64,000 nucleotides of DNA from Chloroflexota bacterium (lineage in GTDB: Bacteria; Chloroflexota; Anaerolineae; J102). The notes below the pieces were generated by a model. It was given only the letters and a program-made list of their open reading frames with translations, did not search any database and had not been told where the DNA came from. Below, in pieces: positions 28,537-61,380 of this stretch. A program made the translations under genes and the position numbers. Location of the stretch: positions 2,545 to 66,544 of the forward strand of contig JAADII010000169.1 of NCBI GenBank assembly GCA_013151415.1, given 5' to 3'. Position 1 is the stretch's first letter; every line of letters begins with the position of its first letter.

Positions 28537-31500
28537 ATGATAGGTGCCCGAGGACGATATATTTCGTTGATGGTGTTGGTGATGGGCGTATTGTTCATGT
28601 TGTTGGCGCCGGCCCTTGCCACGCCGGCCTACGCCCAAGGCGGTCCTCCGGTGGTGTTCACCGGTAATGTCCCTATGGATTTTCCCGCGGGTTCGGCCTT
28701 TCTATACGATCCGGGCCTCTCGCCTCCCGCCAATCCTCCCGAATGGGATGTTTCCATGCCCAACACCTGGCCTCTGGAGCAACAAGTGAGCGGTTGGGAC
28801 ATGGAGTATCTCGCCTTCTTTTATGATGGCCCTTCTGATGTCATGTATGTGGGAATTCAGTACTTCGATGCAGGCACGGTGTTCGAGTTTTTGGGCGGCG
28901 CGGTGACTCATACATTGATTTCCGATGTCATCGCCGGCGATGCAGACCATGATGGGGATCCGGGAGGCGCAAGCACCTATTTGCAGGCGTCGGGCGGCGT
29001 GGATATGCCGGATATTGGCAATGGGGAAGCCATTGTGTTGATCATCGACACCAACCTGGACGGCGCGGGCGACGCGATTGTAGGCGTGCCTCAGACGGGT
29101 GACGTCACCAACTTCCATATCGCGCAATTCAGCCCGCCTGATCCTGCGAATCCACTGGCCGATCCGGCCAATTCGTTTGGCGCGCCCCTCACCGGCTCGA
29201 CGGCCACGCTGTATGCCAACCCCACCATCACCCAACCCGATCTGGAATTCAGCATCAGCAATTTTTCCAATCTGCCCAATCTCAATTTCGACCCCGCGGT
29301 GGATTGCGTTTTCGAGGCCAACTTTCTTGCTTTTAGCGGCAGCATTGTGGATGTAGCGCCGGGCGAAGACTATCTCCCCGTGCCCGAACAGCTTGCCAAC
29401 TTCAGCTTCGACGTGGTGCGACCCGAGGCCGAGGTGACGAAAAGCCTGGTCAACACGACGCCTATCGAGAACGGCGATACGGTTACTTATGAAATCGTCA
29501 TCAACAATCCGGGCTGCTCCACCATGAGCGCGATTCCGCTCACCGACACCTTCGATGCAAACATTTTGCAATACGCAAACGCGACCGTCGCCCCCGATCT
29601 TGTAGACAACCTGAACGGATTGCTGGTCTGGAACGATGTCACCACGACATTGGGCGATGTGCTCACAGGGAACGCAATCACCATCACCGTCGAATTCACG
29701 GCCACACAAGCCACGCCCGTGGGCTCGCCTACGGTCAACCAGGCCAGCGTGGCCGGCGCCACCGACACCAACGGTTATGAAGCGCCCGCCTCTTCCTCGA
29801 GCACAGGTGTGGATGTATATGAGGCCGGCCTGAGTCTGGTGAAGACGGCCGGGACAGTGGGCGATGGGGAAATCTGGTATGTGGACGCCAGCACCGCGCC
29901 CACTAATGTGACTTTCACCTATGTTCTAACCAACACCGGCAACACCTATCTCACCGATCTCACCATCACCGATGACCACGGCACGCCGAGCAATTCGGGC
30001 GATGATGTCACCATAACCTCAGTCGAGTGCCCCGCCCTGGCCGGGCCCCTTGCACCGAATGGGTCGGTCACCTGTACGGCCGACATTTCTGTCAGCGGAC
30101 CATTCCCGGTGACCAACACGGCCACGGTTACAGGAACGCCAAGCAACGAGGTCGGCTCGCCTCTCGCCGGCATCACCCCGCCCAGCGCGGGCGACGATGC
30201 CGTGGTGGACGCATTCACGCCCAATCTCGCATTCACCAAGCTGGCCGGTAATGCGCCCGATGGCGGCGTTTACGAGATCACCAGCCCCGAGATCGTCACT
30301 TACACCTACATCATCACCAACACCGGCGATAGCTACCTGAGCAGCATGGTCATCACCGATGACCTGGGCACGCCGACCGACCCTGTCGATGACCTGGTCA
30401 TTGATTCAGGCTCATGCGCCGGTTTGGCTGGGCCGCTCGCGCCCTTGGGCTCCGTAATCTGTACGGCTTTCATCTCGGTGAACGCCGACGTCACCAATGT
30501 GGCCGCGATCTCGGCCAACCCCACCGATAACTTGGGCGCGGACCTGCCCGGCCTGGACGATCAAACCGCGCAGGACGACGCCATTGTCAACCTCATCGCG
30601 CCGGATTTGAGCTTGCAAAAGACGGTCTATCTCGGCGACGACAACGGCGTTTCTTGCCCGGGCGGCGAACTTGTCTTCGCTCCTTCCGGCTACGTGGTCA
30701 CTTATTGCTTCGAAGTCAGCAACATTGGCGACACTTATCTGGATAGCATTGTCATCACCGATACTGCGCTCAGCATCCCCACCTCGACCACACCCATCCT
30801 GCTTTCCGGGACAACCCCGCTCGCGCCCGGCAACACAGCTGTTTATTACATCACCGACACCATCGCCAGCGACCTGATAAACACGGCCCTGGTGAGCGCC
30901 AATCCCACCGATAACCTCGGCGCCGACCTGCCCCAATATCCCGACAATCCCACCGACTCGGACACAGCCGAGGTGCAGGTCGCGCCCGATCCCACCGTTT
31001 CTGTGAGCAAAACCCTCCTCCCTCCCCTGGTGACGCCCATCGCCGTAACCGACACCATCACCTTCGAGGTGGTCATCACCAACACTGGCCAAACCACCCT
31101 GACCACCTGGTCGGTGGTGGATGACGGCTTCACCACCGGCATGAGCCTGGTCGCGGCCACTCCCACACCCGATAGCGCGGGCCCGCCCATTGCATGGAAT
31201 GCATCATTGCCCGCGCTCGCGGCCGGAGATTCCTTCACCATCACAGTGCAGTTTTTGGTTACGGCTTCGGGAACGCATACAAACACGGTCACGGTGAACG
31301 GCCAAGACGAATTCGGTCGATCCATAACCGAGACCGTCGCCTCTTCAACGGTGGACTTTGTCGATCTCGATTACGGCGATGCGCCCGATCCCACCTATCC
31401 CACCCTTTTGGTCAACGACGGCGCCGCGCATGCGTTGGTGAGCAACGGGCCTTTCATGGGCGCGTGCATCGATCCTGAAACCAACGGCCAGCCCTCCGCC

Positions 31501-34500
31501 AACGCGGACGGCGACGATGTGAACGACACCGCCATAGGGTGCGCCGATGACGAAAATGGCGTCACGCTGCCCACGCAGCTGCTCCCCGGCGACAACCAGG
31601 CGCAGGTGACGGTCGATCTGAGCAATTCACCGCAGGCGTGTTTGCTCAACGCCTGGGTCGATTTCAACGGCGACGGCGTTTGGAGCGCGGGAGAGCAAAT
31701 CTTCACCGACGAACCACTCTCGTTGGGCGTGAACAATCTCACCTTTGCGGTTCCCGGCGACGCGGCGAGCGGAACCACCTACGCCCGCTTCCGATGCAGC
31801 ACTCAAAGCGCGCTGGGCGTCACCGGTCGGGCGAATGATGGCGAGGTGGAAGATTACGCGGTGGAGATAGCCGCCGGCGTAGACTATGGCGACGCTCCCG
31901 ATCAACCGCCCGTGCTCAATTATCCCACTCAGCTCAGCAGCAATGGCGCCGGTCACACCCAGGTCGCGAACGGGCCCTTCATGGGCGCGTGCGTCGACGC
32001 GGAGCCGGATGGCCAGGCGGGATTGAACGCGGATGGCGACGATGCCAACAACACCATCCCCGGTTGCTCCAATGATGAAGATGGCGTCACGCTGCCCACG
32101 CAGCTGCTCCCCGGCGACAACCAGGCGCAGGTGACGGTCGATCTGAGCAATTCGCCGCAGGCGTGTTTGCTCAACGCCTGGATCGATTTCGACGGCAGCG
32201 GCTCGTGGGAGAACGACGAACAGATATTCGTTGATCAGACCCTTTCCGTGGGCGTCAATAATCTCACCTTTGCGGTTCCCGGCGATGCGGCGAGCGGAAC
32301 CACCTACGCCCGCTTCCGATGCAGCACTCAGAGCGGCTTGGCCGTGGACGGCATCGCGCCCGATGGCGAGGTGGAGGATTATGTGGTGGAGATCGCCCAA
32401 CCCGTGGACTATGGCGACGCGCCGTCGAGCTATCCCACCCTTCTCGCCAATAACGGCGCGCGGCATACGCAGACGGCGAACAGCCCCTTCATGGGCGCGT
32501 GCGTCGACGCGGAGCCGGACGGTCAACCGAACGCTCTCGCGGATGGCGACAACGCCAATGACACCATCGTCGGCTGCACCAACGATGAAGATGGCGTCAC
32601 GCTGCCCACGCAGCTGCTCCCCGGCGACAACCAGACGCAGGTGACGGTCGATCTGAGCAATTCGCCACAGACGTGTTTGCTCAACGCCTGGGTCGATTTC
32701 AACAGCGATGGCGTTTGGGGCGCGGGAGAGCAAATCTTCACCGACGAACCGCTTTCGGTGGGCGTGAACAATCTCACCTTTGCGGTTCCCGGCGACGCGG
32801 TGGGCGGCGCCACCTACGCCCGCTTCCGATGCAGCACCCAAAGCGCTCTTGGCCCAGATGGGCCGGCTTCGGATGGCGAGGTCGAGGACTATCTTGTGGA
32901 AATCGCCACGCCCGTAGACTATGGCGACGCGCCGGATACAGGACAGGGATACAACTATGCCACGTTGCTCAGCAACGGCGGCGCCGCCCATTTGCTGGTG
33001 AACAACAACCCCTTCATGGGCGCATGCGTGGATGCCGAGCCGGACGGTCAGCCCAGTGTTGGCGCCACCGATGATGACAATGCGAACACGATTTCCGGTT
33101 GCACCGACGATGAAGACGGCGTCACGTTGCCCTCATCGCTCATCCCCGGCCAATTATTGACTCCGGTCACGATTGATTTGAGCAATTCGCCGCAGACATG
33201 TTTGCTCAACGCCTGGATCGATTTCAACCGCAACACGCGCTGGGATGCAGACGAACAGATATTCAGCGACCAGGCGCTCAGCGTGGGCGTGAACAACCTC
33301 ACCTTCGCCGTGCCCGCTGACGCGGCAGCCGGAACGACCTACGCCCGCTTCCGGTGCAGCACGTCGGGCGGCATTGGCCCTGATTCTCTGGCCGCGGATG
33401 GCGAAGTGGAAGATTACGCCGTCGTGATCGAGCCGACGGGAAGCATTGGCGACTATGTCTGGTACGACGCCAATAGCAATGGCGTGCAAGATGTGAGCGA
33501 ATCCGGCATCGCCAATGTGAGAGTGCGGCTCTATGCTGATGATGGAGATGGGAATTTCGAGCCGGGCGGAGATGACGCTTTGCTCGATGAAACCTACACC
33601 GACGCGGATGGCGGTTACCTTTTCCGCTATCTCGTTGCCGGCGATTACTTCGTGCATGTGGATGAGACTTCGCCTGCGCTGAGCGGCCTCTCCTTTGTTT
33701 CGGGACCGCAAAGCCCAGGCAACCCGCACCCGCTCATTTCCTTGGGCTCGGGGCAAGACTATCGCGACGCCGACTTTGGTTATGTTGCGGAGCCCCTGCC
33801 GGGCAATGCAATGGTCGGCGACACCGTTTTCTATGATGGGAATGGCAACGGTCTGCAAGACGCGGGCGAGCCGGGCATTGCGGGCGTCACGGTCGTTGTG
33901 CAAGATAGCGGCGCCAACCCCATCGGCTCGGCGGTCACCGATGACAACGGCCATTATCTCATCGAGGTTCCGGCCGGATCGGGATATTCGGTCGCGCCCG
34001 TGAATCCATCGGGGTTGACCCCCACCACGCCCCAGCCGATCTTATTGCCCACCTTAAACGACGGCGACCAATATCTCGATGCGGATTTCGGCTTCGATAG
34101 CCCCGACCTGGGCCAAATCGATGGCGTGGTGTTCGACGACAAAGACAACGACGGCGTCTATAGCCCCATCACCGACACGATCATTCCCGGCGTCAGCGTG
34201 CAACTGATTCGCGATGACGACGGCGATGGCGTGTGGGATGCCGGAGAACCGGTCCTTGCCTCTGTATTAACGAATGGCTCGGTCGATGGAAACAACAACA
34301 CCTACAGTTTCAGCGGTCTGCCGGCCGATGACTATCTGGTGCGCGTTTCGGATACGCACAATGTATTGAGCAGTTATGTCGTGGGCGTGTTGGGCGCGCC
34401 CGACACCGACCATAACAGCCAGGCCCAACCCTATTCCGTGGCTCTACCTGTGGCCGGCATCGCGCTTACAGCGGATTTCGGATACTTCCAGGCGGGCGGA

Positions 34501-35499
34501 GGCGTTGCCGGCGATGCAACGGGCGTCATCGGCAATCAGGTGTGGCATGATGTGAACGGCAACGGTCTCTACGAGCCGGGCAACGGCGAAAGCGGCATTG
34601 CCGGCGTCACAGTCGAGTTGCGCGTGGGCGCGTCGGTGGTCGCGACGACCACGACCGGCGCCTCGGGCGGGTACGTATTTACGAACCTGGCGGCCAATAC
34701 ATACAACGTGCGCGTGACCGATGACGCGGGCGTGCTGACGGGCTATCTGGTTTCGCTACTCGGCCCCAACCCCGGCCAGGATAACAACAACCAAAGCCAG
34801 CCTTACACCATCACTTTGGCGTCTGGGGCGTTCAACTTCACGGCCGATTTCGCCTACGCGCGACCGGTCACCATCACCGGCTTCACCTACTTCGATGTCA
34901 ACGGAGATGGCGCCCGCCAGGGCGGCGAACCGGGCGTCAGCGGCATTCCCATTACACTGACCAATGTTTCCACCGGTCAGGTCGTGAGCACCACGCTTTC
35001 ATACAATGGGCCTTACACATTCGCGAACCAACCTCCCGGAACCTATCGTCTTGACGCGCCTTCCACAGCGCCGGGCCTGTTGCGCACATCGTTATCGCCA
35101 TTGCAGATCACGGTCCTAAGCGGCGGGATCAGCCCAGACAACGACTTCGGATACATTGCGCCCACCAATGTCACATTGGTCGATTTTACAGCCTTGGCCG
35201 GAACAGAGGGCAATGTATTGCGCTGGCAGACCTCCTACGAGAACGAGGTGCAAGGCTTTGTGGTCTTCCGTTCACCCACGCCCAATGATGGTTTTCAGGC
35301 CATATCCGAGCTCATTTCTGCAAGTGGAAATCCGGCTGGTTCCACATATGAATGGGTGGATACGACCGCGAAGCCCGGCGTAAACTATTGGTATAAGCTG
35401 CAAAGTTGGCCCGACGGCGAGTTCTTCGGTCCTGTGCCTTTGCGCGACGACCCCGGCGAAGCCGCTCCCCAGTTATACCTGCCCTTTGTCACGCGGTAG
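28537..35499 (+). CDS. Giant (2320 aa) secreted surface/adhesin-like protein: signal peptide, DUF11-type repeats, 5 GEVED-like modules, SdrD-B/Cna-B-like repeats
   Basis: AAGGAG RBS and a signal peptide (MLLAPALATPAYAQG). It has repeated DUF11-like segments and 5 modules of the form DYGDAPD..YPT..GA.H...FMGACVD.E.DGQ...GDD.N...GC.DDEDGVTLP..LNAW.DF..DG.W...EQIF.D..LSVGVNNLTFAVP.DA..G.TYARFRCST...DGEVEDY. Beyond these lie DYVWYDANSNGVQD-type SdrD-B-like repeats. Confidence 0.8.
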   Translation: MIGARGRYISLMVLVMGVLFMLLAPALATPAYAQGGPPVVFTGNVPMDFPAGSAFLYDPGLSPPANPPEWDVSMPNTWPLEQQVSGWDMEYLAFFYDGPSDVMYVGIQYFDAGTVFEFLGGAVTHTLISDVIAGDADHDGDPGGASTYLQASGGVDMPDIGNGEAIVLIIDTNLDGAGDAIVGVPQTGDVTNFHIAQFSPPDPANPLADPANSFGAPLTGSTATLYANPTITQPDLEFSISNFSNLPNLNFDPAVDCVFEANFLAFSGSIVDVAPGEDYLPVPEQLANFSFDVVRPEAEVTKSLVNTTPIENGDTVTYEIVINNPGCSTMSAIPLTDTFDANILQYANATVAPDLVDNLNGLLVWNDVTTTLGDVLTGNAITITVEFTATQATPVGSPTVNQASVAGATDTNGYEAPASSSSTGVDVYEAGLSLVKTAGTVGDGEIWYVDASTAPTNVTFTYVLTNTGNTYLTDLTITDDHGTPSNSGDDVTITSVECPALAGPLAPNGSVTCTADISVSGPFPVTNTATVTGTPSNEVGSPLAGITPPSAGDDAVVDAFTPNLAFTKLAGNAPDGGVYEITSPEIVTYTYIITNTGDSYLSSMVITDDLGTPTDPVDDLVIDSGSCAGLAGPLAPLGSVICTAFISVNADVTNVAAISANPTDNLGADLPGLDDQTAQDDAIVNLIAPDLSLQKTVYLGDDNGVSCPGGELVFAPSGYVVTYCFEVSNIGDTYLDSIVITDTALSIPTSTTPILLSGTTPLAPGNTAVYYITDTIASDLINTALVSANPTDNLGADLPQYPDNPTDSDTAEVQVAPDPTVSVSKTLLPPLVTPIAVTDTITFEVVITNTGQTTLTTWSVVDDGFTTGMSLVAATPTPDSAGPPIAWNASLPALAAGDSFTITVQFLVTASGTHTNTVTVNGQDEFGRSITETVASSTVDFVDLDYGDAPDPTYPTLLVNDGAAHALVSNGPFMGACIDPETNGQPSANADGDDVNDTAIGCADDENGVTLPTQLLPGDNQAQVTVDLSNSPQACLLNAWVDFNGDGVWSAGEQIFTDEPLSLGVNNLTFAVPGDAASGTTYARFRCSTQSALGVTGRANDGEVEDYAVEIAAGVDYGDAPDQPPVLNYPTQLSSNGAGHTQVANGPFMGACVDAEPDGQAGLNADGDDANNTIPGCSNDEDGVTLPTQLLPGDNQAQVTVDLSNSPQACLLNAWIDFDGSGSWENDEQIFVDQTLSVGVNNLTFAVPGDAASGTTYARFRCSTQSGLAVDGIAPDGEVEDYVVEIAQPVDYGDAPSSYPTLLANNGARHTQTANSPFMGACVDAEPDGQPNALADGDNANDTIVGCTNDEDGVTLPTQLLPGDNQTQVTVDLSNSPQTCLLNAWVDFNSDGVWGAGEQIFTDEPLSVGVNNLTFAVPGDAVGGATYARFRCSTQSALGPDGPASDGEVEDYLVEIATPVDYGDAPDTGQGYNYATLLSNGGAAHLLVNNNPFMGACVDAEPDGQPSVGATDDDNANTISGCTDDEDGVTLPSSLIPGQLLTPVTIDLSNSPQTCLLNAWIDFNRNTRWDADEQIFSDQALSVGVNNLTFAVPADAAAGTTYARFRCSTSGGIGPDSLAADGEVEDYAVVIEPTGSIGDYVWYDANSNGVQDVSESGIANVRVRLYADDGDGNFEPGGDDALLDETYTDADGGYLFRYLVAGDYFVHVDETSPALSGLSFVSGPQSPGNPHPLISLGSGQDYRDADFGYVAEPLPGNAMVGDTVFYDGNGNGLQDAGEPGIAGVTVVVQDSGANPIGSAVTDDNGHYLIEVPAGSGYSVAPVNPSGLTPTTPQPILLPTLNDGDQYLDADFGFDSPDLGQIDGVVFDDKDNDGVYSPITDTIIPGVSVQLIRDDDGDGVWDAGEPVLASVLTNGSVDGNNNTYSFSGLPADDYLVRVSDTHNVLSSYVVGVLGAPDTDHNSQAQPYSVALPVAGIALTADFGYFQAGGGVAGDATGVIGNQVWHDVNGNGLYEPGNGESGIAGVTVELRVGASVVATTTTGASGGYVFTNLAANTYNVRVTDDAGVLTGYLVSLLGPNPGQDNNNQSQPYTITLASGAFNFTADFAYARPVTITGFTYFDVNGDGARQGGEPGVSGIPITLTNVSTGQVVSTTLSYNGPYTFANQPPGTYRLDAPSTAPGLLRTSLSPLQITVLSGGISPDNDFGYIAPTNVTLVDFTALAGTEGNVLRWQTSYENEVQGFVVFRSPTPNDGFQAISELISASGNPAGSTYEWVDTTAKPGVNYWYKLQSWPDGEFFGPVPLRDDPGEAAPQLYLPFVTR
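31365..33415 (+). repeat. Four tandem 506-528-bp coding repeats (GEVED modules) with near-identical 100-bp cores
   Basis: DYGDAP-encoding starts at 31373, 31879, 32407 and 32917. The core ggcgtcacgctgcccacgcagctgctccccggcgacaaccag(g/a)cgcaggtgacggtcgatctgagcaattc... is almost identical at 31559, 32083 and 32590. Confidence 0.8.
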
Positions 35500-56398: not shown

Positions 56399-57400
56399 CT
56401 ATCCATAACGCGCAAAGTCGAGCAATTCGTTTAGATCGCAAGTGGCCAGACCAATGACATGATCGCCGCCCCCATAAAATACGTAAACCCGACCATCGAC
56501 CACGGGATTGGCGCAAGAGAAGACAACATTGGGCACATCGCCGCGCAATTCCCACAATTCTTCCGGTTCGAAAATGGGCTCGCGCGGTCGATTGATAACC
56601 TGTGTGGGGTCCTCTAAATCGACCAGACAGACGCCAAATTTATAGATTCGGTCTTCGTTGTATCCATGATTGATGAGCAGCCACCCATGTTCGGTTTCGA
56701 TGGGGACGCCATTGCCACCCACGCTCTTGCTGTCCCAAGCCATTGGATCGTCGGAGCGAGGTCCGTAGACCATGGCCATGTCCTCCTCGCGCCAGGTCAA
56801 CAGATCATCCGAATAGGCGATCCAGACATTGGGCCAGCGACGATGCAATGCGGCGAAACGTCCATTGATCTTACGAGGGAAGAGCGCGTGATCTTTGTTG
56901 TTTTCTCCGCGCACAATGGGGCCGATGGGCTCCCAAACAATAAGATTGCGACTACGCGCGATCATGGGCAGAATGCCGCCGCCTAGATGCGTGGGTTCGC
57001 CCTTGCCGGTGAAAGTGCGGCCATAGGCCGTGTAACACATATAAAAAACGCCGTCGATTTCCGTCACGCGCGGGTCCTCAATCCCGCGCGAGTCGGTCCC
57101 GTCATCGTCAAAAGGCGCCAACACCGGCTCGCGCATGCGATTCCAACGCACCCCATCCTCGCTCACCGCGTAGCCTATTCGGCTGATCCAATCCAAGCCT
57201 TGGGCGCGATAGTGCATATGAAAGAGACCGTTATGATAAATGACCGCAGGGTTGAAGACGTTGTAGCATTCCCAATCAGAGGTGGGATCGGGGAGAAAGA
57301 TAGGTTGGGAGGAATAGCGTTTCAGTTTCATGACCGGGAACAATGCGATAGGAAAGCTGGGGCGCGAGCGTCCGACTTGATTCGTCTTATCGGGCAGCAC
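56399..57400 (-). CDS. GH130/DUF377-like glycosidase (beta-propeller, phosphorylase-like)
   Basis: [21 protein letters not shown] and multiple [10 protein letters not shown] repeats. The start (GTG at 57400 or the internal MKLKRY) is uncertain. Confidence 0.6.
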
Positions 57401-57457
57401 AAAAGAAAAGCGTTCTCGTGCATCTCGAAGCGTCGCTTCTCAAGATGCATGACGCGC

Positions 57458-59383
57458 TTAGAAAAACGGGCCGAAGAAACGGTATGTCACCAAACTAAAG
57501 GCTGCGAGATAGGCAACAGGGTAGAGCCAAATGGTGTAGTTATCGACAGTTTGAACAAAACCGGTTTTTTCGGCCTGCTCCAAACGCTTGAGCGCCACAT
57601 TGAATAGCACCACAAAAACGCTGATGGCGAAGGTTGTCGTGAGCAGCGTGTCCAGGTAGGTGAGATAGCCAAGCCGCGGGAGATCATCAGAAATGGTGAA
57701 ATTGAAGGCGATAAATAGCAGGAGATTGGCGCTGGTCACATCCACCCGCTTGTTGTAATCCTTGAGAAAGAAAGTGATCCATGACACAAGAATAATCAAT
57801 AAAAGAGGAATGAAAATGCGAAAAATATAGAAATTCAAGTGGCGTCGCATGTTGAAATCGAAGGAGTAGCGCGAGCTCAACGCCTGAGTGGTGGCAATGG
57901 TGGTGGTCACGCTGGCGCTGCTTTCAACAATATACCACTCTTCCTCTCCAAGCTGATCGCCAATCTGGGTGAATTCTGCATCATTTTCAAAGACATAGAA
58001 TTCGGCTGGAAATAAGGAGTCGACGCGAATGAAGAAATGTTGAATATCAAAGGGAAATTGCTTGAAGTTGAAATCAGGAGCCTGGAAAGTGGTGGTGAAA
58101 CGCTCGATGTAAATCGCCCGACCTGTTGGATAAACCACCACGGCTCGATTTTGCACCCAACGATTGCCCTGCTGATTGAACAACGTGAATTCCGGCCACT
58201 TTCCCTCGGCCTCTTGAATGAATTGATTGAACGAGTTGGCGGTGAAAAGCTTGAACTGACAATCGCATGTATCGGGGCTGAAGGCGAGCGCGGGATCGAT
58301 CCATTCCATGCGTAAAGTGGCGACGGCGTCGAAATTTTCGGCCTTCTGGTCTACATTGGTGATCTGCTGTAAACGAATGCCGATTTTGACGGGAATGGGC
58401 GTGTTGAGCACAGGTGAACCCTGGGTTTGAGCCTGGCCATTCAGCACATCAGGCGCGTTCACCCCCACCAACAACCGATATTCTACGGGCGCATCGTCGC
58501 TCTCGCGACAGCAGGCTGTCACGGTCAACTGATAGCCCCGTCCACCCTCATCGAAGACGTATTCCAAAACGGCCGTCTGGGTCGCTCCGCCAAAATTGCC
58601 GCTGGCCACTGGTTTGCCGCCAAAATCGGAGAGCACCAAAGTGGGCCGAAAATCGCCGGAAAGCGGCTCCGCAAAAACATAGAGCGCGTCGCCGGCTTCG
58701 AGAGGGCGCACATCAAAAAAGGTGGAGAAGGAAGGCGGCGAAAGCCTTCCTCGCAGTTCTTGCACGCGCGAGCGGCCGGATGCGTCCGCCAATTGAAGCG
58801 CAATGATTTCATCGCCGGTCGCTTGCGCCTCTCCCGTGAGAACGGCGGGCTCATTGATCCCCACCGTCAGCCGGAAACGGCCAAAGCTTTCATGGAAAGG
58901 CGATCCTGTGACGAGCAGCCAATAGTCACCAGATTCAGAAAAAGTATGGCTTAACGACGCCGCGTATCCCGGCCCACCGTCATCGTCCCAGGCGATAAAA
59001 TTGTCGGAGGCGAAAGAATCGAGCATGGCGATGGGGTCTTGACCCTCGGCCAGGGCCCGCCTCACCAATTGCTCGAACTCTTCGCCCAGTTGTCCTTGCA
59101 AATTGCGCTCGACCAAGCCAACAAAGGGATCAAAATTGCCATCGAGGGTCTCCACCCTCACATACAAAGTCTCGCCCGCTTGAATATCGGACAACCGATA
59201 CCACGCGGCTTCATGCGCGGCCAGCTCATGGGTGATGATCTGCACACGCGGCGCGGACTGAGCCCCGGCCCGCAGGGAAAAGCCAAGGCCCGCTATCAGA
59301 GCGAAGACGAGGGAAAGCAGCAAAGAAGAACGGCGCGAAATCACTTGCGATTTCGCCTGGGACAAGCATGAAACGACGTACAC
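57458..59383 (-). CDS. Prokaryotic pentameric ligand-gated ion channel (Cys-loop receptor homolog) with about 300-aa N-terminal tandem-domain extension
   Basis: Ligand-binding-domain beta1-beta2 (VKIGIRLQQITNVDQKAENFDAVATLRMEWIDPAL), Cys-loop-equivalent FPFD motif (FKQFPFDIQHFFIRVDS), and four TM helices M1-M4. The GTG start at 59383 follows AGGAGG. The N-terminal region has two similar about 150-aa beta-rich domains. Confidence 0.75.
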   Translation of the reverse strand: MYVVSCLSQAKSQVISRRSSLLLSLVFALIAGLGFSLRAGAQSAPRVQIITHELAAHEAAWYRLSDIQAGETLYVRVETLDGNFDPFVGLVERNLQGQLGEEFEQLVRRALAEGQDPIAMLDSFASDNFIAWDDDGGPGYAASLSHTFSESGDYWLLVTGSPFHESFGRFRLTVGINEPAVLTGEAQATGDEIIALQLADASGRSRVQELRGRLSPPSFSTFFDVRPLEAGDALYVFAEPLSGDFRPTLVLSDFGGKPVASGNFGGATQTAVLEYVFDEGGRGYQLTVTACCRESDDAPVEYRLLVGVNAPDVLNGQAQTQGSPVLNTPIPVKIGIRLQQITNVDQKAENFDAVATLRMEWIDPALAFSPDTCDCQFKLFTANSFNQFIQEAEGKWPEFTLFNQQGNRWVQNRAVVVYPTGRAIYIERFTTTFQAPDFNFKQFPFDIQHFFIRVDSLFPAEFYVFENDAEFTQIGDQLGEEEWYIVESSASVTTTIATTQALSSRYSFDFNMRRHLNFYIFRIFIPLLLIILVSWITFFLKDYNKRVDVTSANLLLFIAFNFTISDDLPRLGYLTYLDTLLTTTFAISVFVVLFNVALKRLEQAEKTGFVQTVDNYTIWLYPVAYLAAFSLVTYRFFGPFF

Positions 59384-59614
59384 GAGAGCCTCCTGCTGAG
59401 GGATGAAGGGGAGCCTGATTGTACTATGAGTGCGGATTTTTTGCGATCTTAATAGCACATAAGGATTGAAGCGTATGGACAACGCACCATCTCTTATTCT
59501 TCACCCACGGTTCTCTTACATTATGCAAACTTTTCTATGGTAGGGTGGTAGTGTTAAAGTAAACGAGAATAGGCAAACAAGCATAACGATCATCCCCCCA
59601 CTTCTGAGGAAATC

Positions 59615-60397
59615 ATGAATGGATACTTCGATCCTTTGGGCCGACCAACGCGGCCGCCCACCATCGGCGAATTCAACCAGCTGCTACGCGCTTATCGAAA
59701 ACTGAAGGAACAAAACGAAAAGCTGGTCGCGCTTATCAAGGAATATGAGAAAGAGCTGCCTAAAATGCGCGCCGAGGTGGATCAGGCCAAGGCCGAAACC
59801 GATAAACTCCGGTCGCAACTTCGCCAGACCAACGCCGACCTGGCCGAAGCGCGACGCGAGATGACGGAATGGCGTAGACAATTGGAAGAATACAAACGAG
59901 AATTAGAGCAGTATAAAACGCAACTCCGCGAGGCTGCGCCGCCTGAAAACGAGACCGACTGGCGCGAAGGTTATCTGCGACTGCGCGCGGACATGGAAAA
60001 CTACCGACGCCGACAAGCGCAGCGTTTTGAACAGGTTGCACAAGAACACCAGCAACGCATATTGCTCGACATGCTGCCCCTGGCCGATCATTTGGAAATG
60101 GGTTTGCAACATTTGCAAGAGGATGAGGCCGACGACGCCGCAACGCTTCTAAACAATTATCAGGCCAATATTCAAGCCACTTTGCAAGCATTTTTGGATG
60201 CCCTAAAGCGCTACGGCGTTGAACCCATTGCGGCCCAAGGCGAACCCTTTGATCCAGAATTTCATGAGGCCGTGGGGCAAATTTCCAGCGACGACATTCC
60301 CGAAGGCCATGTCGCCCAAGTGCTTCAAACAGGCTACACCATGAATGGGCGGCTCTTGCGGCCTGCGCGGGTGTTGGTCAGTCGCGGGAAAGAGTGA
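59615..60397 (+). CDS. grpE: Nucleotide exchange factor GrpE with long N-terminal coiled coil
   Basis: The GrpE core ([12 protein letters not shown]...PEFHEAV...G) is preceded by about 110 aa of charged coiled coil. Confidence 0.8.
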
Positions 60398-60405
60398 GGA
60401 GGCCA

Positions 60406-61380
60406 ATGGAATACAAGGATTACTATAAAATTCTAGGCGTACCCAAAAACGCGGACGAAAAAACCATCAAACAAGCATATCGTAAACTCGCTCGCACCCT
60501 TCATCCCGACGTGAACCCCGGCGACCCGGAGGCCGAACGCAAGTTCAAAGAGGTCAATGAAGCCTACACCGTGCTCTCGGATCCGGAAAAACGCAAGATG
60601 TACGATCGTTTCGGCGCGCAATGGGAGCAGTATCAGCGCGCGGGCATGAGCCCGGATGCTGCGGGCGCAGGCGCAGGGCCTTCGGGCGCGTACACGCGCA
60701 CCATTACGCCGGAAGAGTTCGAAGAAATCTTTGGCCGAGGCTTCGGCGGATTTTACACCTCGCCCGATATGGGCGGCGTCGGCGGTGATTTCTCCGAGTT
60801 TTTCGATGCGCTCTTCGGCGGCGGCTTTGGCGCGCGCAGAGCCCAACGCGCGCGGCAACCGCGACGCGGTCGCAATATCGAGGCCAATGTCGAGATATCG
60901 CTGGAAGAGGCTTTTCGCGGCGCGACGCGTCTTTTCCAAAAGGACGATGGTCAACGCATCGAGGTGAAAATCCCGCGCGGCGCCGACACCGGCTCACGCG
61001 TGCGCGTCAGCGGCCAGGGCGCGCCCGGCGTCAACGGCGGCCCGCCCGGCGACTTATACCTAAACATTACAGTGCGCCCACACCCCATCTTTCGTCGCGA
61101 GGGCGACAACTTGCGCGTGAAGATTCCGGTGGACCTCTACACGGCCATCCTCGGCGGCGAGGTGCAGGTTCCCACGCTCGAACGACCCGTCATGCTCAAA
61201 ATTCCCGCGGGCACGCAAAACGGCCGCGTGTTCCGGTTGCGCGGGCTGGGCATGCCCAACTTGCGCAATCCCGATAAACGCGGGGATCTCTTGGCCGAAG
61301 TGGAGGTGAAGTTGCCCACAAAACTCACGCCTGAACAACGCCGACTATTCGAACAATTACGCGACATGGCCGCCGGATGA
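60406..61380 (+). CDS. DnaJ-like J-domain co-chaperone lacking the zinc-finger domain (CbpA/class-B-like)
   Basis: J domain DYYKILGV...HPDVNP (HPD), a G/F-rich linker and C-terminal substrate-binding domains. No CxxCxGxG repeats. Confidence 0.8.

What the first reader, a model, noticed from the sequence alone, without database searches (positions are those of the whole stretch)
57458..59383. Pentameric ligand-gated ion channel homolog with a double N-terminal extra domain
The C-terminal 340 aa have a pLGIC ligand-binding domain (FPFD Cys-loop-equivalent motif) and M1-M4 helices, with no large M3-M4 loop. The N-terminal roughly 300 aa form two similar beta-rich domains (GETLYVRVETLDGNFDPFVGL... 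and GDALYVFAEPLSGDFRPTLVL...) resembling PPC-type periplasmic domains, an arrangement similar to DeCLIC-type channels. The region has lower GC and faces a GH130-like glycosidase on the same strand. The ligand is unknown.
Basis: partly seen in the sequence, partly recalled or inferred. Interest (0 to 1): 0.65.

Follow-up and report, generated by a model that had tools for sequence, protein, structure and literature searches.

The report
DeCLIC-type bacterial ligand-gated ion channel
This gene encodes an intact pentameric ligand-gated ion channel with two extra N-terminal jelly-roll domains; it is a full-length relative (39% identity) of the structurally solved, calcium-inhibited bacterial channel DeCLIC, so it is a correct but ordinary find.

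Summary
Window 57458..59383 (- strand) is one intact 641-aa ORF. It starts at a GTG preceded by AGGAGG. It encodes a signal peptide, two homologous beta-rich lobes (NTD1, NTD2), a Pro-loop ligand-binding domain and four TM helices with a short M3-M4 loop.

It matches DeCLIC (PDB 6V4A/6V4S) over its whole length by sequence (E=1.3e-133, 39% identity). An AlphaFold model also matches DeCLIC (Foldseek E~1e-60, TM 0.75-0.82). All 14 published DeCLIC Ca2+-coordinating residues are identical. The pore residues are conserved: 2' acidic (Asp for Glu), 9' Leu and 16' Phe.

The NTD lobes are divergent PPC domains. Fold and profile searches support this, although Pfam's PPC model does not hit this protein.

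The family is large and patchily spread: 236 species genomes, mostly Chloroflexota plus methanogens, Desulfobacterota and others. It has no co-conserved neighbour. The GH130 gene is an incidental downstream neighbour. The low GC reflects amino-acid composition (GC3 is normal).

The most likely function is a Ca2+-inhibited, pH-modulated cation channel. The direction of pH gating and any agonist are unknown.

Verdict: new member of a known kind, low interest.

The parts
57458..59383 (-). Complete gene for a 641-aa DeCLIC-type pLGIC subunit (GTG start, TAA stop at 57458-57460)
   Evidence: ORF and translation. Full-length hit to DeCLIC 6V4A, E=1.3e-133. 100% identical to NCBI MAG protein P0001.
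59389..59394 (-). Shine-Dalgarno AGGAGG, 5 nt upstream of the GTG start
   Evidence: Sequence read.
59261..59383 (-). Signal peptide, aa 1-41 (n-region K11/R17/R18, hydrophobic core LLLSLVFALIAGLGF, A-G-A|Q cleavage motif)
   Evidence: Hydropathy peak at aa 18-41. Helix 19-35 with low pLDDT in the model. A41 and Q42 nearly invariant in the family. The cleavage site is inferred.
58814..59248 (-). NTD1 lobe (aa 46-190): jelly-roll with two inserted helices (aa 98-112, 117-128)
   Evidence: AF2 models. 34% identical to DeCLIC NTD1. Foldseek hit to the isolated DeCLIC NTD1 6V4B, TMt 0.82.
59126..59131 (-). D85-P86, equivalent to DeCLIC Asp76/Pro77 of NTD1 Ca2+ Site 1
   Evidence: Residue mapping. 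Site definition from PMC12664993. D85 invariant in 47 family members.
58964..58990 (-). W132-DDDGGPG-Y140, equivalent to DeCLIC Asp123, Asp124, Gly126, Gly128 and Tyr129 of NTD1 Ca2+ Sites 1-2
   Evidence: W132, D134 and G139 invariant; D133, D135, G137 and Y140 at >=90%.
58430..58774 (-). NTD2 lobe (aa 204-318): second jelly-roll, a paralogue of NTD1
   Evidence: BLASTP NTD1 vs NTD2 E=7e-10. AF2 strands 206-308. 31% identical to DeCLIC NTD2.
58508..58513 (-). Vicinal Cys291-Cys292 at the start of an NTD2 loop; absent from DeCLIC
   Evidence: Present in 27-29 of 47 family members. Function unknown.
57839..58411 (-). Extracellular ligand-binding domain (aa 325-515), PF02931
   Evidence: Pfam E=1.8e-13. 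42.9% identical to DeCLIC ECD and 42.6% to sTeLIC ECD.
58337..58339 (-). E349 (beta1-beta2 loop), equivalent to DeCLIC Glu347, the side-chain ligand of the interfacial inhibitory Ca2+ site (Site 3)
   Evidence: Invariant in the family.
58259..58267 (-). C373-D-C375 motif in the ECD, equivalent to DeCLIC C371/C373
   Evidence: Invariant in 47/47 members, present in DeCLIC, absent in the sTeLIC alignment. Role unknown.
58046..58078 (-). Pro-loop (beta6-beta7) PDFNFKQFPFD. It includes P436 and F438 (DeCLIC Pro434/Phe436 carbonyl ligands of Site 3) and the FPFD signature.
   Evidence: P436, D437, F438, F443, P444 and D446 invariant.
57938..57955 (-). Loop F QLGEEE (aa 477-482), equivalent to DeCLIC Gln476-Glu481 (Ca2+ Sites 3-4). 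E481 also equals the sTeLIC pH-sensor E160.
   Evidence: L478, G479, E480 and E481 invariant.
57461..57838 (-). Transmembrane domain M1-M4 (aa 516-641) with a very short M3-M4 turn
   Evidence: AF2 helices 516-537, 543-565, 576-603, 607-637. 50% identical to DeCLIC TMD and 56.8% to sTeLIC TMD.
57689..57757 (-). Pore-lining M2 (aa 543-565): D548 (2'), L555 (9'), F562 (16')
   Evidence: Maps to DeCLIC E547, L554 and F561. L555 and F562 invariant.
57398..57459 (-). Imperfect hairpin followed by UUUUCUUUU, starting at the stop codon. A possible intrinsic terminator between the channel gene and GH130.
   Evidence: RNA fold -22.8 kcal/mol, but z-score only -1.09. Not found by the strict terminator scan. 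Weak evidence.

Best explanation
The gene encodes one subunit of a homopentameric, DeCLIC-type prokaryotic pentameric ligand-gated ion channel (Pro-loop receptor). After signal-peptide cleavage, about 475 residues lie outside the cytoplasmic membrane: two PPC-like jelly-roll lobes (NTD1, NTD2) followed by the canonical beta-sandwich ECD. Four helices (M1-M4) span the membrane, and M2 lines the pore.

By homology with DeCLIC, the channel most likely conducts cations. It has an acidic 2' ring, a 9' Leu hydrophobic gate and a 16' Phe. It is probably held closed by external Ca2+ bound at the ECD subunit interface (beta1-beta2 Glu, Pro-loop carbonyls, loop-F Glu triplet). Further Ca2+ ions bound in NTD1 probably rigidify the N-terminal collar. 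Ca2+ depletion and/or a pH change would then release the ECD and the NTD lobes and open the pore.

Shown here: domain architecture, fold, full-length homology, and conservation of every published Ca2+ ligand and of the pore residues. Inferred only: pentameric assembly, cation selectivity, Ca2+ inhibition, and the direction of pH sensitivity.
For: - Full-length sequence match to DeCLIC: E=1.3e-133, 39% identity over 597 aligned pairs.
- AF2 model with pLDDT 84.3 and pTM 0.74. Foldseek top 20 hits are all DeCLIC, TM 0.75-0.82 for the best.
- All 14 DeCLIC Ca2+-coordinating residues defined at 1.9-2.3 A local resolution in PMC12664993 are identical in the query. They are invariant or >=90% conserved in 47 family members.
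- Pore residues 2' D, 9' L and 16' F are conserved.
- DeCLIC function from the literature: cation currents on Ca2+ depletion, more opening at pH 5, and an NTD that accelerates gating and is stabilised by Ca2+.
- The ORF is intact, with a strong RBS and a signal peptide.
Against: - No functional data exist for this protein, and it is only 39% identical to DeCLIC.
- Its ECD+TMD is equally close to sTeLIC (48% identity), which opens at alkaline rather than acidic pH.
- The sTeLIC pH-sensor residues E106 and E160 are also conserved here (E427, E481) and in DeCLIC. Sequence therefore cannot predict the polarity of pH gating.
- Even for DeCLIC, the physiological stimulus and role are unresolved.
- No multimer model was possible.
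Confidence: 0.65

Rival explanations
1. Same protein family, but gated like sTeLIC: activated by alkaline pH (deprotonation of the vestibular and loop-F glutamates), with divalent cations as secondary modulators and the NTD as an accessory.
For: ECD+TMD is 48.0% identical to sTeLIC (TMD 56.8%), against 42.9%/50.0% to DeCLIC. The phmmer hit to sTeLIC has E=1.2e-92. The sTeLIC pH sensors E106 and E160 correspond to E427 and E481 here.
Against: sTeLIC has no NTD, whereas the query shares the whole two-lobe NTD and its Ca2+ sites with DeCLIC. The same two Glu residues are also present in acid-potentiated DeCLIC, so they do not discriminate.
Confidence: 0.2
2. The channel is opened by an unidentified chemical ligand. 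This could be a small molecule at the orthosteric or vestibular site, or a polymer, peptide or glycan captured by the PPC-like NTD lobes. It might be functionally linked to the downstream GH130 mannoside phosphorylase.
For: pLGICs are classically agonist-gated. PPC-type domains act as binding modules in collagenases, and the closest non-pLGIC fold match is the ColG tandem collagen-binding domain. GH130 lies 57 nt (up to about 127 nt if its start is the internal ATG) downstream on the same strand.
Against: No gene family is co-conserved next to the channel in 81 loci. The best non-self cluster is generic PAS sensor kinases in 11/81 loci, roughly what I estimate chance alone would give (not computed). 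GH130, GrpE and DnaJ occur only in this window, and three further contexts are unrelated. A terminator-like hairpin follows the stop codon (weak). No agonist is known for DeCLIC or sTeLIC.
Confidence: 0.12
3. The ORF is a decaying or non-functional remnant, or a recent horizontally acquired passenger, as might be suggested by the lower GC.
For: GC is 0.533 against a window mean of 0.584. The family has a patchy, cross-domain taxonomic distribution that suggests lateral transfer.
Against: The 641-aa ORF is uninterrupted and aligns end to end with DeCLIC. All functional residues are intact. GC3 is 0.625, within the neighbours' range of 0.58-0.70, and the GC drop is confined to the Phe/Ile/Asn/Tyr-rich ECD and TMD. 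The nearest relatives are also Chloroflexota.
Confidence: 0.03

Closest known systems
DeCLIC (Desulfofustis-related deltaproteobacterial pLGIC; PDB 6V4A, 6V4S, 7Q3G/H, 9EV1-9EVA, 9FTG-J)
   Same: Same four-module architecture: NTD1, NTD2, ECD, TMD. Nearly the same length (641 vs 642 aa). Full-length homology with E=1.3e-133. All Ca2+ ligands of Sites 1-4 are identical. The ECD CxC motif, the 9' Leu, the 16' Phe and an acidic 2' residue are shared.
   Different: Only 39% identical overall (NTD1 34%, NTD2 31%, ECD 43%, TMD 50%). The 2' residue is Asp rather than Glu. NTD2 carries a vicinal Cys-Cys, where DeCLIC has C275/C280. The host is a Chloroflexota MAG rather than a deltaproteobacterium. 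No experimental data exist.
sTeLIC (Tevnia endosymbiont pLGIC, alkaline-pH gated; PDB 6FL9, 9EX6, 9EWL)
   Same: ECD+TMD aligns without gaps at 48% identity, E=1.2e-92. The loop-F GEEE motif, the Pro-loop, M2 (NLLLFIAFNFTIS) and pH-sensor Glu residues are shared.
   Different: sTeLIC has no N-terminal lobes and lacks the CxC motif. Its gating polarity (alkaline) is opposite to that of DeCLIC.
GLIC / ELIC (canonical prokaryotic pLGICs)
   Same: Same ECD beta-sandwich plus M1-M4 fold (GLIC E~1e-26, Foldseek TMt ~0.75).
   Different: About 24% identity, no NTD, and different gating ligands (protons; primary amines).
PPC domain (Pfam PF04151) / clostridial collagenase ColG collagen-binding domains (PDB 5IKU, 1NQD)
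   Different: No Pfam PPC hit on this protein itself. No sequence-level hit to any PPC structure in the PDB. The lobes are fused N-terminally to a channel instead of C-terminally to a secreted peptidase.

Membership tests
pLGIC superfamily (Pro-loop receptors) | Extracellular beta-sandwich ligand-binding domain (PF02931) | tested here: met
   Pfam E=1.8e-13, 50.9 bits vs cutoff 26, aa 327-515. The fold matches GLIC, sTeLIC and DeCLIC.
pLGIC superfamily (Pro-loop receptors) | Conserved beta6-beta7 Pro-loop with the (F/Y)-P-x-D signature | tested here: met
   FPFD at aa 443-446. F443, P444 and D446 are invariant in 47 relatives.
pLGIC superfamily (Pro-loop receptors) | Four transmembrane helices M1-M4 directly after the ECD, with M2 lining the pore | tested here: met
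   AF2 helices 516-537, 543-565, 576-603, 607-637. Ungapped alignment to the sTeLIC and DeCLIC TMDs. Pfam PF02932 alone is sub-threshold (14.5 bits vs 28.1). Hydropathy alone picks out only M1 and M3.
pLGIC superfamily (Pro-loop receptors) | Homopentameric assembly forming an ion-conducting pore | not testable with these tools
   No multimer prediction or experiment was available. Inferred from homology to pentameric DeCLIC and sTeLIC structures.
DeCLIC-type multidomain pLGIC | Two tandem jelly-roll lobes (NTD1 with a helical insert, NTD2) N-terminal to the ECD | tested here: met
   AF2 models. Internal similarity E=7e-10. The NTD profile hits DeCLIC NTD at E=2e-58 and the isolated NTD1 6V4B at 5.5e-39.
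DeCLIC-type multidomain pLGIC | Full-length sequence and structural homology to DeCLIC | tested here: met
   phmmer E=1.3e-133, query 26-638 vs chain 16-637. Foldseek E 5.5e-60, TMq 0.75 / TMt 0.80-0.82.
DeCLIC-type multidomain pLGIC | NTD1 Ca2+ Sites 1-2 ligands (Asp76, Pro77, Asp123, Asp124, Gly126, Gly128, Tyr129) | tested here: met
   The query has D85, P86, D134, D135, G137, G139 and Y140, all identical. Sites as defined in PMC12664993.
DeCLIC-type multidomain pLGIC | Interfacial ECD Ca2+ Sites 3-4 ligands (Glu347, Pro434, Phe436, Gln476, Leu477, Gly478, Glu480) | tested here: met
   The query has E349, P436, F438, Q477, L478, G479 and E481, all identical.
DeCLIC-type multidomain pLGIC | Ca2+-inhibited, pH-modulated cation current | not testable with these tools
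   Requires electrophysiology. Only the sequence determinants could be checked.
PPC domain (PF04151), for the NTD lobes | Significant match to the Pfam PPC model | tested here: not met
   No Pfam family at E<=10 for either lobe of this protein.
PPC domain (PF04151), for the NTD lobes | Fold and profile-level homology to bona fide PPC / collagen-binding domains | tested here: met

The most novel reading that the evidence does not exclude
The PPC/collagen-binding-domain-like NTD lobes may be ligand-capturing modules rather than only Ca2+-stabilised kinetic modulators. They could bind an extracellular polymer, such as cell-envelope glycan, matrix protein or peptide, and couple its presence to channel opening. 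The vicinal Cys291-Cys292 pair, present in most family members but not in DeCLIC, could add a redox-sensitive switch. That would make this clade a polymer- or redox-gated channel family in Chloroflexota and methanogens. The 3- and 4-lobed variants would then extend the sensing collar.
Probability: 0.08. Interest if true: 0.6.

Novelty: new member of a known kind. Interest (0 to 1): 0.25.

Why it matters
The physiological role of prokaryotic pLGICs, and of the DeCLIC N-terminal domain in particular, is still unknown. DeCLIC is the only NTD-bearing pLGIC with a partly characterised NTD.

This Chloroflexota homologue adds no new principle, but the work around it is useful in four ways.

- Every published Ca2+ ligand in both the NTD and the ECD is invariant or nearly so across a diverse family. 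This supports Ca2+ binding as an ancestral, selected property rather than a crystallisation curiosity.
- The architecture occurs in at least 236 species genomes, dominated by Chloroflexota and including methanogenic archaea. No conserved operon partner was found, so the channel seems to act alone.
- The NTD lobes are linked at the sequence-profile level to PPC domains.
- Natural variants with three or four lobes exist.

A second, divergent orthologue could serve as a comparison system for DeCLIC structure-function studies.

Tried and rejected
- **Pfam on the isolated lobes at E<=10:** no hit. The PPC link had to come from fold and profile searches.
- **NTD profile against PDB sequences:** only DeCLIC was found.
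- **Look-up of the exact protein P0001 in the contig index:** not on record.
- **Neighbourhood survey:** three individual contexts and clustering of flanking ORFs from 81 loci. Large apparent clusters were shadow ORFs inside the channel gene. After removing them, the best cluster was PAS sensor kinases in 11/81 loci, roughly my rough estimate of chance (not computed), so a two-component link was rejected. The GH130/GrpE/DnaJ link was also rejected (1/81 each).
- **Horizontal-transfer reading of the low GC:** rejected, because GC3 is normal.
- **Promoter scan:** no sigma-70-like site. The terminator scan found nothing between the genes. A hairpin plus U-tract exists but is not statistically distinguished.
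- **CIRCE element upstream of grpE:** none.
- **Predicting acid vs alkaline gating from the sTeLIC sensor residues:** uninformative, because they are conserved in all three proteins.
- **Hu et al. 2020 (original DeCLIC paper):** not held in the library. Its results are cited only through later papers.
- **Second copy or partner subunit in the window:** none.
Full report
**Observation**

The window carries one uninterrupted ORF on the minus strand at 57458..59482. This gives a 641-aa product.

An identical protein is in NCBI as 'hypothetical protein GXP42_16975 [Chloroflexi bacterium]' (MAG). Its 628-aa length implies a start 13 codons further in, where a GTG lies at 59344. Either start yields a typical signal peptide, with a hydrophobic core at aa 18-41 and an A-G-A|Q motif.

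**Identity**

- **Pfam.** The Neur_chan_LBD model matches at aa 327-515 (E=1.8e-13, 50.9 bits, cutoff 26). The TM model gives only a weak hit, and nothing matches the first ~320 residues.
- **PDB sequences.** Against all PDB sequences the protein matches DeCLIC (6V4A/6V4S and later entries) over its entire length: query 26-638 against chain 16-637, E=1.3e-133. The NTD-less channel sTeLIC follows at E=1.2e-92 over aa 328-633, and GLIC at about 1e-26.
- **Identity to DeCLIC.** A BLOSUM62 alignment gives 39% overall: NTD1 34%, NTD2 31%, ECD 43%, TMD 50%.
- **Identity to sTeLIC.** The ECD+TMD aligns without gaps at 48% (ECD 42.6%, TMD 56.8%).

**Structure**

An AlphaFold2 model built from a 47-sequence family alignment has mean pLDDT 84.3 and pTM 0.74. 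It shows two beta-rich lobes, the first with two inserted helices. These are followed by a beta-sandwich and four helices at 516-537, 543-565, 576-603 and 607-637, with almost no M3-M4 loop.

Foldseek against the PDB returns only DeCLIC chains in the top 20 (E 5.5e-60 to 1e-40, TM 0.75-0.82 over ~604 columns). sTeLIC follows (TMt 0.86 on the channel part), then GLIC.

The two lobes are paralogous: BLASTP 30% identity, E=7e-10, with a 35-residue insert in lobe 1. This matches the published description of DeCLIC NTD1 and NTD2.

**Functional residues**

The 2025 nanodisc cryo-EM study of DeCLIC defined four Ca2+ sites:

- Sites 1-2 in NTD1: Asp76, Pro77, Asp123, Asp124, Gly126, Gly128, Tyr129.
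- Sites 3-4 at the ECD interface: Glu347, Pro434, Phe436, Gln476, Leu477, Gly478, Glu480.

All 14 residues are identical in the query: D85, P86, D134, D135, G137, G139, Y140, E349, P436, F438, Q477, L478, G479 and E481. All are invariant or at least 90% conserved across the 47 aligned relatives.

The M2 pore residues are also conserved. The 2' position is Asp548 (Glu547 in DeCLIC), 9' is Leu555 and 16' is Phe562.

According to the literature, DeCLIC passes cation currents on Ca2+ depletion and opens more at pH 5. Its NTD accelerates gating and is rigidified by Ca2+. The most likely mechanism here is therefore a Ca2+-inhibited, pH-modulated cation channel.

There is one caveat. sTeLIC is equally close in the channel core and opens at alkaline pH. 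Its two proposed pH-sensing glutamates (E106, E160) are conserved in the query (E427, E481). Both also align with a Glu in DeCLIC. Sequence therefore cannot predict the polarity of pH gating.

**The 'PPC-type' claim**

Pfam finds no family on either lobe, even at E<=10. A profile of the NTD finds only DeCLIC among PDB sequences. Other evidence supports the claim:

- The NTD profile, searched against 1.84 billion representative proteins, gives 1913 hits at E<=1e-3. Among the best 150 are proteins made of bona fide PF04151 PPC repeats (P0223, P0253, P0256, P0266).
- Some lobes in close relatives pass Pfam's PPC gathering score (P0163, P0141, P0161).

The lobes are therefore best described as divergent PPC domains.

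**Distribution and context**

- **Family size.** A word-indexed search found more than 725 homologues. The top 120 are nearly all 600-675 aa long and 46-55% identical.
- **Species genomes.** A scan of 185,579 species-representative genomes found 236 encoded relatives.
- **Taxonomy of the best 80.** My tally of the record titles gives 44 Chloroflexota, 15 methanogenic or related Euryarchaeota, 9 Desulfobacterota or 'delta' and 6 Gammaproteobacteria. There are also 2 Xenococcus cyanobacteria and single Zixibacteria, Nitrospiraceae and others. All match from about residue 40 to about 636, so they include both lobes.
- **Neighbours.** Clustering the flanking ORFs of 81 loci found no co-conserved neighbour. 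After shadow ORFs within the channel gene were removed, the largest cluster was generic PAS sensor kinases in 11/81 loci.
- **This window's neighbours.** Its GH130, GrpE, DnaJ and hydrolase genes occur beside no other homologue. Three individually inspected contexts are also unrelated.
- **GH130.** It lies downstream on the same strand, so it does not face the channel gene. An imperfect hairpin plus U-tract immediately follows the channel's stop codon, though it is not statistically distinguished.
- **GC content.** The GC dip is confined to the ECD and TMD. GC3 (0.625) equals that of the neighbours, so amino-acid composition explains it.
- **Copy number.** There is only one copy in the window.

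**Comparison and verdict**

The protein meets every testable defining feature of the pLGIC superfamily and of the DeCLIC-type multidomain subgroup. Pentamer formation and currents could not be tested. It is an uncharacterised, divergent member of a kind that has been known structurally since 2020 and studied through 2026.

A specialist would not be surprised, so interest is low (0.25).

What remains open for the whole family is the physiological stimulus and the role of the NTD. The most novel reading not excluded is that the PPC-like lobes bind an external polymer or act as a redox switch through the vicinal Cys pair (probability about 0.08).

Noticed in passing
window 58508-58513 (- strand; aa C291-C292): A vicinal Cys-Cys pair sits at the start of the NTD2 loop. 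The corresponding DeCLIC loop (residues 291-296) could not be built in the best cryo-EM maps. The pair occurs in 27-29 of 47 family members but not in DeCLIC, which has C275/C280 instead. It may form a vicinal disulfide or act as a redox switch. I could not inspect model coordinates.
   Followed up: partly
window 58259-58267 (- strand; aa C373-D-C375): A CxC motif in the ECD is invariant in 47/47 relatives and present in DeCLIC (C371, C373), but absent from NTD-less sTeLIC. It is not mentioned in the two DeCLIC papers searched for it.
   Followed up: partly
P0163, P0164, P0178, P0184, P0243 (proteins; not in the window): Some relatives of the channel have expanded N-terminal collars. There are three lobes in a 712-aa protein (LBD from aa 407). 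The 871-927-aa proteins appear to have about four lobes (LBD from aa ~560-620). None of the pLGIC papers I read here mentions such multi-lobed variants.
   Followed up: partly
P0126, P0141, P0161, P0180, P0186, P0206, P0261, P0267: The same lobe type occurs outside channels. These proteins have 3-6 tandem copies at the N-terminus, and their C-terminal part matches Pfam DUF6055 (PF19527). Individual lobes match the channel NTD profile as strongly as 2.7e-34 (domain i-Evalue in a small local database). This suggests domain shuffling between the two families.
   Followed up: partly
loci L008, L027, L048, L053, L055, L058, L059, L061-L064, L067, L070, L072, L081: Fifteen of the 80 best genome hits are methanogen or Euryarchaeota MAGs (Methanoculleus, Methanofollis, Methanotrichaceae, Methanoregulaceae, Methanosarcinales). 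They encode full-length two-lobe channels at 43-47% identity to this Chloroflexota protein, which implies inter-domain transfer.
   Followed up: no
window 56399-57400 (- strand): This is the GH130 family gene (PF04041, E=1.7e-59). The listed GTG start at 57400 overlaps the hairpin and U-tract. The true start is probably the internal ATG at 57331 (MKLKRYSS...), since the Pfam match begins at ORF residue 46.
   Followed up: partly
window 59384-59614 and 59615-61380: A grpE-dnaJ pair (the two ORFs overlap by 4 nt) is transcribed divergently from the channel gene across a 231-bp intergenic region. No CIRCE (HrcA) operator was found anywhere in the window at up to 3 mismatches, and the scan found no sigma-70-like promoter.
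   Followed up: partly
window 28537-35499 (+ strand): There is a very long ORF of 2320 aa elsewhere in the window. I did not examine it.
   Followed up: no
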